In this document: piece by piece, positions 1 through 64,000 of the stretch
Numbering within the stretch: the first letter of the stretch is position 1
Layout of the letters: the number at the start of each line of letters is the position of its first letter
Source: Pecten maximus
Lineage: Eukaryota
Assembly (NCBI RefSeq): GCF_902652985.1
Contig: NC_047027.1
Span: forward strand, 21,886,001-21,950,000
Length of the DNA: 64,000 nt
Direction: 5' to 3'
Notes under the pieces: generated by a model
What the model was told of the DNA's origin: nothing
The model's database searches: none
The model's input: only the letters and a program-made list of their open reading frames with translations
Position numbers and translations under genes: made by a program

Positions 1-150
1 GATTCTGCAGTATAATGTTTCCATGGTTACTGAGAGATCCTACAGTATAATGATGTTTCCATGGTAACTGGGAGATCCTGCAGTATAATGATGTGTTTCC
101 ATGGTAACTGGGAGATCCTTCATTAAATGATGTTCCTATGGTTACTTAGA
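1..150. repeat. Minisatellite, ~38-40 bp unit, each unit carrying an RFX X-box-like palindrome
   Basis: About 4 copies of GAGATCCTGCAGTATAATGATG(TG)TTTCCATGGTAACTGG, truncated by the window start; core GTTTCCATGGTAAC. Confidence 0.85.
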
Positions 151-1189
151 TATCTTACTATATAGTGACTTTTCCTTCTTTTCCATCAAAGCATGAACCA
201 GACAATACCCCAAAAAATTCCCTAGCTCCATTTTATTGTCAGGTAGATACATATAATTAAAAAAAAAGACACAGCATTATTGTAATGTCCAGTTTATGTT
301 CCGACTTAAAGTCAATGTTATCTCTGAGAAATAAATGCACATTTCATAAAATAAATCAGCTATCTAATATATCTCCACTGCTTCAGCCCCAAACTATTGC
401 AACAGCGTCAGTCGTTTTTTAGAATTCAATTTATTAAAGTGTCTCTCACATATGTGTTTAATCTTAACATCGAAAGCATGGCTACCAGGGGCAGTTCACA
501 GATAACACTTTATGGGTAAATTTAAATATTGTATTTGTTAGAACAGATAAGAATATAATCACCTATTGTATATGCGAAAAAGCAACGATCATTTTGCTCA
601 ATGTGTACTTGAATAAATTTGAATTGAATTACAGAATATTTTCAACACAATATACATGTATCTGATTTCAAGTAAAATTTGTATTTTACATATTTCTTAA
701 TATATTGTATACAAAAAAACCTTCCAAATCACTGTTCAACATGGTGACATCTGGCCAGATAAGAAAAGTTACTCGAAATTTTGATTACATTCTTTTGTGA
801 ACTTAAACAATCTGTCGTAAAATATTGATCGCTGGACATTGTGTGAATGATTCAGAGGTAAGCTGCATTGGTCACATGCTGGTCCGTGCAACCATGTGTC
901 ACGGTTGACTGGTCAGTGGTTCACAGTCCACTGGTCAAGGCTCTCGACCAAATTCTTAACAGGCGTCAAGTGACCAGCAGGCATCCACAGGATCATTAGC
1001 AGTTCACCGATGTTTACGGTTCACCGATCACATGTTCATGGTGAATTGAACAGTTTCAGTAAAAATAGGCTATAATTATAGCATGTAGTTAATTGGACTA
1101 AATTCTATGACAAAGATTTCTTAATACACACGCATTGGGACTTTGCCTTAGTATACATGCTACTGAAATCTTATTATTGGGACTGGAAA

Positions 1190-1957
1190 CAAATCTTACA
1201 TTGGGACGAGGATTTCTTTATAATCTCGTACATGAAATCTTACATTGGGACAAATCTTTCTTGATAACCTTAGGCAGGAAATCTCACATTGGGACAAATC
1301 TGTCTTAATAAACTGGGACATGAAATCTTACTTTGAGACAAATCTGTCTTGATAAACTTGGACAGGAAATCTTACATTGGGACAAATCTGTCTTAATAAA
1401 CTGGGACATGAAATCTTACTTTGAGACAAATCTGTCTTGATAAACTTGGACAGGAAATCTTACATTGGGACAAATCTTTCTTAATCAACTCGGACAGGAA
1501 ATCTTACTTTGAGACAAATCTGTCTTAATAAACATGGACAGGAAATCTTACATTGGGACAAATCTGTCTTAATAAACTGGGACATGAAATCTTACTTTGA
1601 GACAAATCTGTCTTGATAAACTTGGACAAGAAATCTTACTTTAAGACAAATCTGTCTTAATAAACATGGACAGGAAATCTTACATTGGGACAAATCTGTC
1701 TTTATAATCTTGGACACAAAATTTTACTATGGGACAAATCTGTCTTAATTAACTTGGACATGAAATCTTACTTTGAGACAAATCTGTCTTCATTAAATTG
1801 GACAAGAAATCTTACTTTAGGACAAATCTGTCTTAATAAACATGGACAGGAAATCTTACATTGGGACAAATCTGTCTTTATAATCTTGGACACGGAATTT
1901 TACTATGGGACAAATCTTTCTCATTAAACTGGGTCAGGAAATCTTCCATTGGGACCA
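1190..1957. repeat. Minisatellite, 44 bp unit (~16 copies) with partial 88 bp dimer structure
   Basis: GAAATCTTAC recurs at 1322, 1366 and onward; CATTGGGAC and CTTTGAGAC variants largely alternate. ORF 1685-1927 is a read-through. Confidence 0.95.
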
Positions 1958-2879
1958 AGTTTCCTTTGCTATTTGCATGAAGTGTAGCTGTTATCCTATC
2001 CATTGAGCAGAGCTATTCTAACAGTACACCCATAAATGTCTCATAACTGAGACATGCAGAATTTTCCTTCCAGTTTTATTGATTTTGTGTGATTTTGAAT
2101 TATGCTAACTGAAGTATTCCAACACTAAGTTTCTCTGAAAGAACAATTCAGAATTTGAATTTGTAAGAAAAACCACACATGGTTGATAGACTCACTGACT
2201 ACAGCCCTGCTAACGGTTGTTGTAAGCCATCATTAAAGATTTGGAAGCAAATCGACCATTAATTGTAAATCGAGCCGGTAATTATAGGTCAGATATCCTA
2301 TACACTTCAACTTACCTGTGTTTTTTACCTGCTAATCAAAGTGTGCATGTTTGAAAACCTTTTGTTACCAGTATGGTCGTGTGTACATTTCACAGGTTAA
2401 ATGGAGCAGTTTTTGTCGCCTGATTTAAAAATTGTTCAACAGCAGAAGTGTTTCCTTGAGTTACACCTGCCTACCATACGTACCTCTGTTTTACACAACC
2501 TTTATACTGACCTACTCAAGGTCATTGTCCATCTATATGTAAATCAGGACCGAAATCTCCCCTCATATTATTGACAGGTGGGTCCAGGTGATAGGTCAAT
2601 TAAGTCCATTTCGCTGTGTTTTATGATCAAATATGGAGTCACTTTACTGATGAAAGTACTGTTTAAGTCCATTGAAGTCTGTAATATTGTAAGTTATCAT
2701 ACTGTGTTCAGATCTGATAGAAACATCTATGCCAGTGGGATGACCAAATGCTCAAGTTCAAAGTCCATCTGTCAACCTAGCGACAGTAATTCAAGACTGC
2801 CATGGAAATTAATTTGCAGTTGTTCACCAAATCTGGAGACTGTCGTCAGGAGTTTAAAGTGACCCAAGTCTCAAAATAA

Positions 2880-3565
2880 TAGAGATGGGAATGTGGGGAG
2901 AGGGAAGATATGAGTGAAGGAATAAAAGAGACATGAAAAGATAGAAGGAATTTAATAAGATGGAATGAAAGCTAGAGAAGGGGAGAAACAGAAAGGGGAA
3001 GAAGAAGAAGAAGAAGAAGAAGAAATTGAGAAAGAGAGGGAGAGGAAAGGTCGGAAAGGATGAGAGGTAAAGGTTGAAAAGGTTGAGAGGTAAAGGTTGG
3101 AAAGGTTGAAAGGTAAAGGTTGGAAAGGTTGAGAGGTAAAGGTTGAAAAGGTTAAAAGGTAAAGGTTGCAAAGGATGAAAGGTAAAGGTTGAAAAGGTTG
3201 AGAGGTAAAGGTTGGAAAGGTTGAAAGGTAAAGGTTGGAAAGGTTAAAAGGTAAAGGTTGCAAAGGTTGAAAGGTAAAGGTTGCAAAGGTTGAAAGGTAA
3301 AGGTTGCAAAGGTTGAAAGGTAAAGGTTGAAAAGGTTAAAAGGTAAAGGTTGCAAAGGTTGAAAGGTAAAGGTTGAAAAGGTTAAAAGGTAAAGGTTGCA
3401 AAGGATGAAAGGTAAAGGTTGAAAGGTAGAAGTCTTAGAAAGTCAGGAAAAGGGAGAAAACAGTTAGAATGAAAGAGAGACTCTGAATGGAAGAAATTAA
3501 GGGGAAAGTGGATACAAAAGGAAGGAAAGAGATTGTGAAAAAGAAAGGAAATAGATACTGGAAAC
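2880..3565 (+). repeat. Purine-rich tract containing (GAA)n and a 23 bp minisatellite (3047-3428)
   Basis: (GAA)n at ~2998-3024; unit GAAAGGTAAAGGTTGCAAAGGTT built from AAAGGT subunits, ~16 copies. Explains the minus-strand FQPLP ORFs. Confidence 0.95.
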
Positions 3566-61800: not shown

Positions 61801-62180
61801 CATTAGTTTATCTGAATTATTCTTAAAAGAATAAAAAACATCATTTGAAATGCGTGAATGAACCTACTGACCAAATCAAAATTGCTTTCGGTTGCTTTTT
61901 CTGTGATATAATCACGATTGTTGATGTAGCACATCCGTCCAATAATTACTCCCAGACTGATAACACCTTCCGTTATAACGGCTTCTCTGTAAAACTGGAG
62001 ATAAATTGAGAACTAGTTGTCTTCATTATTAATTATATCAGGGTGCACCTGGATAAGATGGGAATATCATTGAAACTCACGGCTCAGCAATCTACATAAC
62101 CTTACCTACATTAGTATACTGCTTTAATGGCCAAATTGTGTGATGTATACGTAGGTTCTAGTAAAATCATTCTTATTTAA

Positions 62181-62473
62181 GGGACCGTGATAGCTCAGTT
62201 GGTTAGAGTGCCAGCCTGGTAGCCTCGGGTGAAGATCCGAGGTGCTTGGTTCGACGCTTCCTACCCGTGTCGGTTTGTGTTTCTCGAGAAGCTGAGAAAC
62301 GGGCCGGTCTGTGCTGTCGTGGTTGTGTCCTTGTATAAGATTGCTCTGGATGGCATGTGATAGGCCTCCGGTATGTTATTCAGTGAGGTAGTCACCAACT
62401 ACTACAAGGAGACTCCACCTCAAAATGTCACCCTTGCTGTTCACTGGGCGATAAAACCAGCAAACAAACAAAC
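62181..62473 (+). mobile_element. Near full-length tRNA-derived SINE with CORE-like and Meta-like segments
   Basis: A-box TAGCTCAGTTGG, B-box-like GGTTCGACGC, GTGGTTGTGTCCTTG (CORE-like), GGCATGT..TGTTATTCAGTGAGGTAGTCACC (Meta-like), (CAAA)n tail; two more partial copies in the window. Confidence 0.88.
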
Positions 62474-62640
62474 TTTACTCTTCAGGACTTTATGGATGCA
62501 CTTCTAAATTTCTAGATACTCTAGTTCTTTTAATGTTTTAATCTGAAAAAGGGAAAACATGGAGCTGAGGACAAAGACTGTGATACAATAAGACAAATGT
62601 CGAAACATTTTCTTTACTGGACCCAGTGACCGTGTCCTCT

Positions 62641-62765
62641 GTCAACATGGATATAAGATGATGTTTTGTATGTGCCCAGGTTGCCATGGTAACTCCCCAG
62701 TGCAACAGTTGGCAGGGTAGACTTCTGATGTACTTCTGTTGTCATGGTGACCTGAGATGTCCATG
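62641..62765. promoter_or_regulatory. Second X-box cluster including a consensus RFX site
   Basis: GTTGCCATGGTAAC 62680-62693, GTTGTCATGGTGAC 62738-62751, GTCAACATGGATAT 62641-62654. Confidence 0.45.
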
Positions 62766-64000
62766 AAGGTGCTAGACCCTTGTAGGGGGGAAAGTCTTTG
62801 GGGTGTTATACAGATGTTTATATATATAACTGTAGGAGATTTTGAATAAAGACGATCAGACAATTCTTTTATCATGGTAGTATAAATTGCACTCCAATGG
62901 CAATTTATATCTTATCAAGTAGCCCTGCATCATCAGATGCTTTTTAACGTCAAGGACTCTTGTTGTGATCTCTTACGCAATTAGGATGACAGAAGCCACG
63001 GTGGCTGTGCCTGCGGATGTGGCAATGAGTGGCAATCAAATCAGTTTCATGAAGGTGACGGAATTATAGACGAAGGTGTTCTACCGACATCAGAGAGATG
63101 CAGGGTACTTAACATTTTGCCTTTAATAGTTTTCAATATTTGTGAAAATTACTTCTGTTTGATGAGATACACCGACAGGCGAAAAAAAATGTTACGTCAA
63201 TCCGCTGAGAGCTGTTGGTTGCCAAGAGGCCACGTTTTCCCATTAATAGTACACTATTAAGTAGGAACTTTTGACAAAGAAGGTTAAGACAGAGATGTTC
63301 CCCATCTCGAGAACGACCTTAAACATTTACTGGGTATATTCTATTTGACGACGGTTCTTTGTACCCCATTAATAGTACATTATAAGGCAGTTAGCATTTT
63401 TGCATGTTTTTTACTGACCTACAGCGACGGTGAAATAGTTATTCCACTCCGACCCTCATGTGTTGTGTTTTATGTGTTCCTCGGTTCCCTGTGATAATGT
63501 TTTGCCGTTTTTCTCAGTTCTATGATAATATTGGCGTTTTCCTGTAGTAAAGATGAGAGATTTCTATTTAACTGTCCAGTAACCAGAATTGTACTTGTCC
63601 AAAGAGTACACCGACCCCCAAAGGAGGGGGGAGGGGATCTCTTAACGGAACAGCTGTTGCTGGTAATATGAACCCAAGGGATAGTGCTCAATTAAAAGAA
63701 TACTTTTATAGTGCCAATTTATTACAGGTTTTGTTTGCCTTTGACATAATTTTCACAAAGAAATAATAACTGTATTTCATTGTTTTTGTTTGAATCAGAA
63801 TATACTTACATAATTAGTTTTATTGATGAACACAGCATTGAGTTATTCTTCAGCAGAGCTAACGAAGCTAACAAGGATATTTACATCCCCCAAAAATAGA
63901 GCGCTGACCCTATGAACATTTTCATTTGGATCATTTAACAGAATTCTGTATGAAAATTTGTGAAATCATAGACAGGATCTACACATTAAAATATAAAGCA

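What the first reader, a model, noticed from the sequence alone, without database searches (positions are those of the whole stretch)
1..64000. Continuum from young minisatellites to homotypic motif clusters around one large gene
Seen: four short motifs form dense clusters throughout otherwise unique DNA, and each is also the core of a tandem array in this window. CAGGTR is in the 10650-12152 array (GATACCTG), TGACCA+TGTCCA in the 3607-4160 array, the X-box GTTTCCATGGTAAC in the 1-150 array, and TGACCT in the half-decayed 34700-35012 array. Intermediate decayed arrays exist (25160-25350, 50655-50893, 53855-54145) where mainly the motif is still recognisable. Inference: tandem amplification repeatedly creates protein-binding arrays whose spacers decay while the motif is kept, or motif-bound DNA is prone to amplify. 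Either would be a genome-wide regulatory or chromatin-organising grammar that standard annotation would miss.
Basis: partly seen in the sequence, partly recalled or inferred. Interest (0 to 1): 0.7.

Follow-up and report, generated by a model that had tools for sequence, protein, structure and literature searches.

The report
Motif clusters upstream of Robo
The non-coding DNA at the start of a bivalve's Robo axon-guidance gene holds real clusters of three short motifs that are likely transcription-factor sites, but most clusters show no trace of being decayed tandem repeats, and three of the four motif-bearing tandem arrays cited belong to dispersed repeat families that likely came from transposon ends, so only a minority of cases fit the proposed repeat-to-cluster continuum.

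Summary
Observation partly confirmed, interpretation only narrowly supported. The window is the 5' region of a Robo gene. Outside arrays, CAGGTR, TGACCA(+TGTCCA) and TGACCT form real clusters: over the 264-kb locus TGACCA ranks 1, TGACCT 6, CAGGTA 11 and CAGGTG 13 of 2080 hexamers. The X-box is not clustered outside arrays. CAGGTR and TGWCCA clusters have mixed orientation, background flank identity and no periodicity, so they do not look like decayed arrays. Tandem repeats fill 28-30% of sampled DNA. In 365 repeat families TGWCCA and X-box are not enriched, and CAGGTR is explained by unit composition. Only TGACCT stays about 2-fold enriched, weakly in the replicate. The 3607, 10650 and 34700 arrays are dispersed families resembling transposon (MITE) ends. 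One real intermediate exists: the 34700 array keeps TGACCT (0.88) while spacers fall to 0.66, unlike five of six sister arrays. Motif bases carry 0 of 69 SNPs against 3.8 expected. Candidate binders BCL11, ZEB and nuclear receptors are untested. The scan noted locally born minisatellites in this genome before, not these clusters. Side result: units lose GpC steadily with copy number.

The parts
18579..19270 (+). Transcribed 5' exon of Robo (likely the first, untranslated exon); link to the coding exons is inferred
   Evidence: Contigs of run X6 (RNA by guess) cover 18579-18803 and 18877-19271; the latter contig (1815 letters) leaves the genome at the GTAAGT donor at 19271
55724..55847 (+). Predicted signal-peptide exon of Robo (ATG at 55775); Ig and Fn3 exons start 47 kb beyond the window end
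   Evidence: AG/GT-bounded, hydrophobic 24-residue start; downstream exons hit Ig and fn3 and Robo2/Robo1 best in PDB, E 2e-53
833..976 (.). TGACCA/TGTCCA cluster, 5 sites, mixed orientation
7098..7900 (.). Two TGACCA/TGTCCA clusters (7098-7302, 7665-7900), 5 sites each, mixed orientation
30356..33419 (.). Four TGACCA/TGTCCA clusters (30356-30429, 31141-31246, 32840-33069, 33279-33419)
   Evidence: run X5 carries a 15-bp tandem duplication behind 33412 that copies a TGGTCA site
35142..37467 (.). Two TGACCA/TGTCCA clusters (35142-35259, 37411-37467)
47045..47269 (.). TGACCA/TGTCCA cluster, 6 sites
5646..5729 (.). CAGGTR cluster, 5 sites
7855..7990 (.). CAGGTR cluster, 6 sites, mixed orientation
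16729..16995 (.). CAGGTR cluster, 8 sites, mixed orientation, 1.6 kb upstream of the 5' exon; further sites to 17809
45037..45117 (.). CAGGTR cluster, 4 sites; looser CAGGTR field continues 46176-48890
1..158 (+). End of a 40-bp X-box array that begins about 500 bp upstream of the window; nearly locus-specific
   Evidence: motif divergence 0.09 vs 0.17; one other locus at about 69% identity
3607..4130 (+). 32-bp array (TGTCCA 14, TGACCA 10 in about 16 units); derivative of a dispersed 41-bp family whose unit resembles a TA-CAGT transposon end
   Evidence: TGACCA is absent from a 27-unit relative
10650..12152 (+). 17/26/43-bp CAGGTA array; member of a dispersed family sharing a core with the 3607 array
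34697..35052 (+). Decayed 17-bp array, about 20 units; TGACCT kept, CAGGTG of the family unit lost; best case of an intermediate
25160..25360 (.). Decayed 20/40-bp array with X-box-like cores
53855..54145 (.). Decayed 37-bp array with CCATGG/X-box cores and 9-bp internal duplications
50655..50893 (+). Decayed array of AGGTCA/AGGTTA half-sites
41263..41376 (+). Decayed copy of MITE family A, holding TGACCA, CACCTG and TGACCT words
   Evidence: nhmmer E 1e-8

Best explanation
The mixed-orientation TGACCA/TGTCCA, CAGGTA/CAGGTG and TGACCT clusters around the Robo 5' exons are real and likely ordinary homotypic enhancer or silencer site clusters (candidates BCL11, ZEB and nuclear receptors, untested) that likely arose mostly site by site, while the motif-bearing minisatellites are a largely separate product of a repeat-rich genome. 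SHOWN: the clusters are word-specific, locus-enriched, orientation-free and without periodic trace; the genome sample is 28-30% tandem repeat; the 3607, 10650 and 34700 arrays belong to dispersed families; the 34700 unit matches the 17-bp subterminal repeat of TA-flanked MITEs, which already contains these words; high-copy units are GpC-poor and AC/GT-rich, which favours these GpC-free words. INFERRED: multivalent two-cluster zinc-finger repressors read the clusters and selection keeps them; the 3607 and 10650 families come from a further MITE whose intact copy was not found; occasionally a transposon-seeded array in a regulatory intron is kept for its half-sites while the rest decays (34700, TGACCT).
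For: Pair excess against 200-bp dinucleotide shuffles over 203 kb unique DNA of the locus: TGACCA 118 vs 9.6, TGACCT 75 vs 7.6, CAGGTA 36 vs 4.8, CAGGTG 29 vs 3.6; one-letter neighbours CAGGTC (3 vs 3.2), CAGGTT (7 vs 7.2), TGCCCA (3 vs 3.8), TGGCCA (2 vs 1.2), TGATCA (4 vs 7.4) are flat. TGWCCA runs of 4 or more: 19 in 203 kb here vs 8 in 957 kb of genome sample. Same-orientation neighbours: CAGGTR 56 of 104, TGWCCA 70 of 130; flank identity 0.27-0.30 vs 0.27 background. Periodic clusters: 1 of 20 and 1 of 34 vs about 9% of random pieces. Units: TGWCCA 22 vs 18.8 and X-box halves 10 vs 16.2 of 365 families; CAGGTA 14 vs 15.5 under the units' order-2 model. The clustered TGNCCA variants (TGACCA, TGTCCA) are the ones human BCL11A prefers, with TGCCCA depleted in both (10.64898/2026.02.06.704516, passages); the genome holds two BCL11-type CCHC fingers over cut-off. 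ZEB1 acts through a paired CAGGTA and CAGGTG (PMC11422717, passages). SNPs: 0 of 69 in reference motif bases vs 3.8 expected, P about 0.02-0.04. MITE link: 34700 unit vs MITE repeat matrix, shuffle P 0.001; intact TA-flanked families with 398 and 358 first-look candidates.
Against: No binding, accessibility or cross-species data. The SNP test is small (three DNA runs, 10.8 kb; one search shows 40 of 379 rows) and one alternative allele creates a TGTCCA site. TGGCCA count is also above shuffle (48 vs 31), unlike the BCL11A pattern. Motif density is higher in CpG-poor loci, which a mutational origin would also give. Very old arrays would lose periodicity, but would need inversions to give mixed orientation. 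TGACCT is co-oriented (40 of 60), enriched in units (23 vs 10.2; still 23 vs 10.4 after removing 13 transposon-like units) and in two-copy duplications (10 vs 3.3), so for this motif duplication matters and is not explained by MITEs. The 10650 unit matches the family A/B repeat only weakly (P 0.017) and the 3607 unit not at all; two pattern searches for their intact parent found nothing. Transposon-end patterns mark only a few of 365 units.
Confidence: 0.6

Rival explanations
1. One reading: minisatellites are born, their spacers decay and selection keeps the motif, producing most homotypic clusters genome-wide.
For: 34700 array: TGACCT 0.88 vs other positions 0.66, while five of six sister arrays show no such gap. 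TGACCT better kept than spacer in 5 of 5 decayed arrays. TGACCT clusters periodic in 4 of 13 vs 6% controls and co-oriented. Three X-box-cored arrays lie in this one window. TGWCCA cluster spacers are somewhat GpC-poor (0.67 vs 0.82 in flanks), as array units are.
Against: TGWCCA, the top cluster motif, is not enriched in units, is kept worse than spacer in 7 of 7 decayed arrays and has random orientation. In younger arrays motif vs spacer divergence is not distinct: TGACCT 10 of 17, TGWCCA 9 of 19, CAGGTR 16 of 22 with shift-test z -1.4. Unit enrichment was weak in the held-out set: TGACCT 7 vs 4.6, CAGGTG 3 vs 3.5. The window's arrays were picked after the motifs were seen.
Confidence: 0.12
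2. Neutral sequence texture: CpG decay in methylated introns, transposon relics and composition-biased amplification make the clusters; no protein reads them.
For: CAGGTR and TGACCT density correlate with low CpG o/e across 138 loci (rho -0.36, -0.37) and the locus is CpG-poor (0.46-0.54). MITE family A alone carries TGACCA, CACCTG, TACCTG and TGACCT. TGTCCA in the 3607 family alternates with a CpG form. CAGGTR clustering did not replicate in the second sample (ranks 733 and 1775).
Against: Shuffles that keep dinucleotides in 200-bp blocks still leave a 8-12-fold pair excess, confined to exact words. Family A/B relics are few: about 22 profile hits at E under 1 over 1.86 Mb, many at the same loci. 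SNP deficit.
Confidence: 0.17
3. Binding-driven duplication bias: factors bound in the germ line promote short tandem duplications of their own sites, which seeds both clusters and arrays.
For: Two-copy duplications contain CAGGTR (13 vs 5.6) and TGACCT (10 vs 3.3) more than shuffles, of 309. A segregating 15-bp duplication copies a TGGTCA site at 33412. The process is described in human spermatogonia (PMC8559717, passages).
Against: Both words are already about 1.5-fold above the dinucleotide model in unique DNA, which explains part of the excess. TGWCCA is not enriched in duplications (7 vs 8.1). Neighbouring sites share no flank similarity.
Confidence: 0.11

Closest known systems
[quoted passage not shown] 2010; seen only as cited in PMC8559717, passages)
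   Same: Several copies of one short motif within 100-300 bp, either orientation, near a developmental gene.
   Different: Here defined from sequence alone in a bivalve; binding and conservation untested.
Regulatory sites formed by local duplication (Nourmohammad and Lassig 2011, PMC3188502; abstract and outline seen)
   Same: The idea that neighbouring sites descend from local duplications; fits TGACCT here.
   Different: CAGGTR and TGWCCA neighbours show no excess flank similarity; the source here is long minisatellites, not single short duplications.
Motif-duplicating insertions at germline-bound sites (Kaiser et al. 2021, PMC8559717; passages seen)
   Different: Shown there with ATAC-seq and population data for NRF1, CTCF, PRDM9; here only a modest excess in two-copy duplications.
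Satellite arrays arising from MITE ends and internal repeats (review PMC12628747, passages; clam DTC84 PMC3879986, listing only)
   Same: Tandem arrays grown from terminal or subterminal pieces of non-autonomous DNA transposons, later free of the element ends.
   Different: Units are 17-66 bp; one copy appears to keep a nuclear-receptor half-site selectively.
BCL11A/B clustered TGNCCA sites (PMC12006351 and 10.64898/2026.02.06.704516, passages)
   Same: TGACCA and TGTCCA preferred, TGCCCA depleted, several sites per region.
   Different: Human erythroid data; the bivalve protein's DNA-contact residues were not examined; clustered sites here show an extra flank preference (AC before, GTG after).
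ZEB E-box/Z-box pairs (PMC11422717, passages)
   Same: CAGGTG and CAGGTA act together; CAGGTC and CAGGTT are not clustered here.
   Different: Snail, Scratch and E-proteins also read CAGGTG (recalled); no test separates them.

Membership tests
Homotypic binding-site clusters | Several copies of one motif in a short span, above a composition-matched null | tested here: met
   for TGACCA, CAGGTR, TGACCT; not for the X-box outside arrays
Homotypic binding-site clusters | Concentrated near promoters or enhancers of developmental genes | tested here: met
   Robo 5' region; TGWCCA clusters 19 in 203 kb vs 8 in 957 kb. One locus only.
Homotypic binding-site clusters | Sites under constraint | tested here: inconclusive
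   0 of 69 SNPs vs 3.8 expected, one allele creates a site; no other species available
Homotypic binding-site clusters | Accessible and bound by the factor | not testable with these tools
   No run labelled as ATAC or ChIP among the 24 listed
Clusters descended from tandem arrays | Neighbouring sites co-oriented | tested here: not met
   CAGGTR 56 of 104, TGWCCA 70 of 130; met only for TGACCT, 40 of 60
Clusters descended from tandem arrays | Residual periodicity or flank similarity | tested here: not met
   CAGGTR 1 of 20, TGWCCA 1 of 34; TGACCT 4 of 13
Clusters descended from tandem arrays | Motif enriched in repeat units | tested here: inconclusive
   TGACCT yes pooled, weak in replicate; CAGGTR explained by composition; TGWCCA and X-box no
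Clusters descended from tandem arrays | Motif decays more slowly than spacer | tested here: inconclusive
   TGACCT 5 of 5, CAGGTR 9 of 13, X-box parts 5 of 8, TGWCCA 0 of 7 of 116 decayed arrays
MITE-derived minisatellites | Same unit at unlinked loci without shared flanks | tested here: met
   34700 family; 10650 family; 3607 family (its flanks not compared)
MITE-derived minisatellites | Intact parent with terminal inverted repeats and TA flanks containing the unit | tested here: inconclusive
   Met for the 34700 unit (families A and B); no intact parent for the 3607 and 10650 units, only look-alike ends in L120, L149, L170
BCL11 target clusters | TGACCA and TGTCCA over TGGCCA and TGCCCA | tested here: met
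   pair ranks 1, 102, 715, 1376
BCL11 target clusters | Orthologue present with conserved DNA-contact residues | tested here: inconclusive
   Two PF25491 hits; DNA-binding fingers not examined
ZEB target clusters | CAGGTA and CAGGTG both clustered, CAGGTC and CAGGTT not | tested here: met
   ZEB gene not searched
RFX X-box sites | Full X-box above background | tested here: inconclusive
   Short X-box 34 in 203 kb vs 60 in 957 kb, as single sites; motif name recalled, binding untestable

The most novel reading that the evidence does not exclude
Transposon ends seed 17-bp minisatellites that carry several factor motifs at once, and when one lands in a developmental gene's intron selection edits it into a single-motif array: the Robo 34700 copy kept the nuclear-receptor half-site in phase and lost the E-box. 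This transposon-to-minisatellite-to-cluster route, helped by a GpC-avoiding amplification bias, would be a recurring source of TGACCT and X-box regulatory arrays in scallops.
Probability: 0.2. Interest if true: 0.62.

Novelty: new member of a known kind. Interest (0 to 1): 0.38.

Why it matters
It gives a concrete, testable map of candidate BCL11, ZEB and nuclear-receptor site clusters at a mollusc Robo gene, read from sequence alone. It shows that sharing a hexamer between arrays and clusters is weak evidence of descent in a genome that is nearly one-third tandem repeat. The 34700 array with its six sister copies is a natural experiment on whether a repeat can be tamed into a regulatory array. 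The GpC gradient with copy number points to an unexplained rule for which units expand.

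Tried and rejected
GpC hypermutation as the cause of GpC-poor units: singleton C>T rate at GpC is 9.2 per 1000 vs 6.3-7.8 in other non-CpG contexts, and short dispersed repeats show no excess; too small for a 2-4-fold loss. RNA-level or recursive-splice role for CAGGTR: no strand bias in the first intron (35 vs 35). Clusters as decayed MITEs in general: the inward-facing pattern is not favoured (24 vs 24) and profile hits are few; one sample cluster (L033) has a weak hit, E 0.1. 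Splice-junction 'mirage' arrays as the source of CAGGTR in units: donor-like AGGTRA 29 vs 18.6 but GGTRAG 18 vs 13.8 and acceptor-like 41 vs 41.2; inconclusive without annotation. Intact parent for the 3607/10650 families: not found. Cross-species alignment: no other scallop species among the runs. Paper searches that found no report of these clusters in molluscs; for GpC-poor minisatellites; listings only, and most subscription papers and bioRxiv supplements are not searchable. Scan look-ups by words found nothing.

Full report
Setting. The window is G000:C13:21886001-21950000 in a 918-Mb animal genome; earlier scan notes call it a scallop, a label I did not test. Exons starting 47 kb beyond the window hit Ig and fn3 families and Robo2/Robo1 best among solved structures (E 2e-53). 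The window holds a transcribed exon at 18579-19270 (run X6, RNA by guess) and a predicted signal-peptide exon at 55724-55847. It is thus the 5' non-coding region of Robo; the joining of these exons is inferred.

Data. Besides the window I used 200 kb of flanks and 160 evenly placed 10-kb stretches in two sets of 100 and 60. Tandem repeats cover 30% and 28% of the two sets and 12% of the window. A related scallop is reported at 21.7% (PMC10225492, passages; its Table S13 not opened). After masking tandem and dispersed repeats 957 kb remained. Minisatellite tests kept periods 10-100, at least 3 copies, score at least 50 and non-simple units: 241 of 647 arrays in set 1, collapsed to 221 families; 365 families pooled.

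1. The clusters are real for three motifs. In the masked window CAGGTR is 104 vs 44.5, TGACCA 72 vs 36.9 and TGACCT 45 vs 29.0 against local shuffles, all clustered; the X-box is not. Over the whole locus, against 200-bp dinucleotide shuffles, TGACCA is first of 2080 hexamers for close pairs (118 vs 9.6), TGACCT sixth, CAGGTA eleventh and CAGGTG thirteenth; one-letter neighbours are flat. In the genome sample TGACCT clustering replicates (ranks 7 and 12), TGACCA partly (8 and 147), CAGGTA and CAGGTG not (33 and 733; 57 and 1775). Runs of four or more CAGGTR sites still number 10 against 0.7-0.9 expected, and TGWCCA runs are 19 in 203 kb here against 8 in 957 kb. The clusters are therefore concentrated at particular loci, mostly CpG-poor ones.

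2. Most clusters do not look like old arrays. Neighbours within 100 bp share orientation in 56 of 104 CAGGTR and 70 of 130 TGWCCA pairs, and flank identity equals background. Residual periodicity appears in 1 of 20 and 1 of 34 clusters against about 9% of random pieces. TGACCT differs: 40 of 60 co-oriented and 4 of 13 periodic.

3. Motifs in repeat units. Against GC-matched background pieces: CAGGTR 28 vs 14.9, TGACCT 23 vs 10.2, TGWCCA 22 vs 18.8, X-box halves 10 vs 16.2 of 365 families. The held-out set alone is weak (TGACCT 7 vs 4.0, 35 of 300 draws reach it). Under the units' own order-2 model CAGGTA is 14 vs 15.5 and CAGGTG 15 vs 11.5, while TGACCT stays 27 vs 11.7. Units have a distinct make-up: GpC o/e falls from 0.89 in unique DNA to 0.70 in two-copy duplications, 0.64, 0.40, 0.36 and 0.21 with rising copy number, while AC/GT rises to 1.58.

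4. Motif versus spacer. In younger arrays the difference is small or absent. In 116 decayed arrays the motif is better kept than the spacer in 5 of 5 for TGACCT, 9 of 13 for CAGGTR, 5 of 8 for X-box parts and 0 of 7 for TGWCCA.

5. Where the cited arrays come from. The 34700 array has look-alikes on five chromosomes without shared flanks. Its unit matches the 17-bp subterminal repeat of TA-flanked inverted-repeat elements (shuffle P 0.001), of which two families have 398 and 358 first-look candidates. Family A itself carries TGACCA, CACCTG, TACCTG and TGACCT, and a decayed copy lies at 41263-41376. The 10650 and 3607 arrays also belong to dispersed families and share 17 of 18 bases of a core. 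The 41-bp relative of the 3607 unit begins like those element ends, but no intact parent was found, so that origin is inferred; the class name Tc1/mariner is recalled. Such units are few genome-wide and do not explain the TGACCT excess. Satellites growing from MITEs are known (PMC12628747, passages), and MITEs are abundant in bivalves (PMC10294476, passages).

6. The best intermediate. Aligned to the family unit, the 34700 array keeps TGACCT positions at 0.88 while other positions are at 0.66; in five of six sister arrays the two are equal (0.82-0.89 vs 0.86-0.89), the sixth being 0.98 vs 0.89. CAGGTG of the family unit is gone from all 21 units. This fits local retention of one motif, in one array chosen after the fact. 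Three X-box-cored arrays in one window are also unusual, though X-box words are not enriched in sampled units (4 vs 2.5).

7. Constraint. In three DNA runs, 0 of 69 SNPs over 10.8 kb fall in reference motif bases against 3.8 expected (P 0.02; 3.9% of random word sets give zero); one alternative allele creates a TGTCCA. One search showed 40 of 379 rows and I dropped one that lies in a multi-copy repeat. One run carries a 15-bp duplication of a TGGTCA site at 33412.

8. Candidate readers (inference). Human BCL11A binds clustered TGNCCA sites as a multimer (PMC12006351, passages), with TGACCA and TGTCCA enriched and TGCCCA depleted (10.64898/2026.02.06.704516, passages); the clustered variants here are the same two, and the genome has two BCL11-type CCHC fingers. 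ZEB1 uses paired CAGGTA and CAGGTG sites (PMC11422717, passages). TGACCT as a nuclear-receptor half-site and the X-box as the RFX site are recalled. None was tested for binding.

9. Known versus new. Homotypic clusters, their growth by local duplication (PMC3188502, abstract) and motif-duplicating insertions at bound sites (PMC8559717, passages) are described. My searches listed no paper on these clusters in molluscs or on GpC-poor minisatellite units. Verdict: real clusters, likely regulatory, of a known kind; the continuum is a minor route at best, open for TGACCT.

Noticed in passing
365 minisatellite families in L021-L180; window arrays: Repeat units lose GpC in step with copy number (o/e 0.89 unique, 0.70 two-copy, 0.21 at 40 or more copies), more than CpG, and gain AC/GT and TA; 10 of 12 arrays in or beside the window have no GpC. 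Mutation rate does not explain it.
   Followed up: partly
L237 (C7:38386600-38387900): Arrays of the 3607 family and of the 10650 family lie 500 bp apart at one locus.
   Followed up: partly
L098 (C18:9500001-9510000): Another locus dense in both TGACCA (3.2 per kb) and CAGGTR clusters, CpG-poor; gene not identified.
   Followed up: no
window 23356-23568 and 62180-62476: Two short dispersed repeats, 41 and 14 copies in 1.86 Mb; likely SINEs (recalled class).
   Followed up: partly
window 9007-9199: Dispersed element with TGACCTTGACCTT; such 6-bp TGACCT doublets account for part of TGACCT co-orientation.
   Followed up: no
window 30883-31043 and 32055-32201: Decayed arrays whose kept cores are GATA-like (TTATCA/CTATCA); GATAAA is also enriched in units (22 vs 8.4).
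   Followed up: partly
window 14871-14938: AG/GTAAGT-bounded 68-bp stretch upstream of the main 5' exon; possible alternative untranslated exon.
   Followed up: no
L149:2719-3723, L170:4563-5585: A further intact 1-kb TA-flanked inverted-repeat element family.
   Followed up: partly
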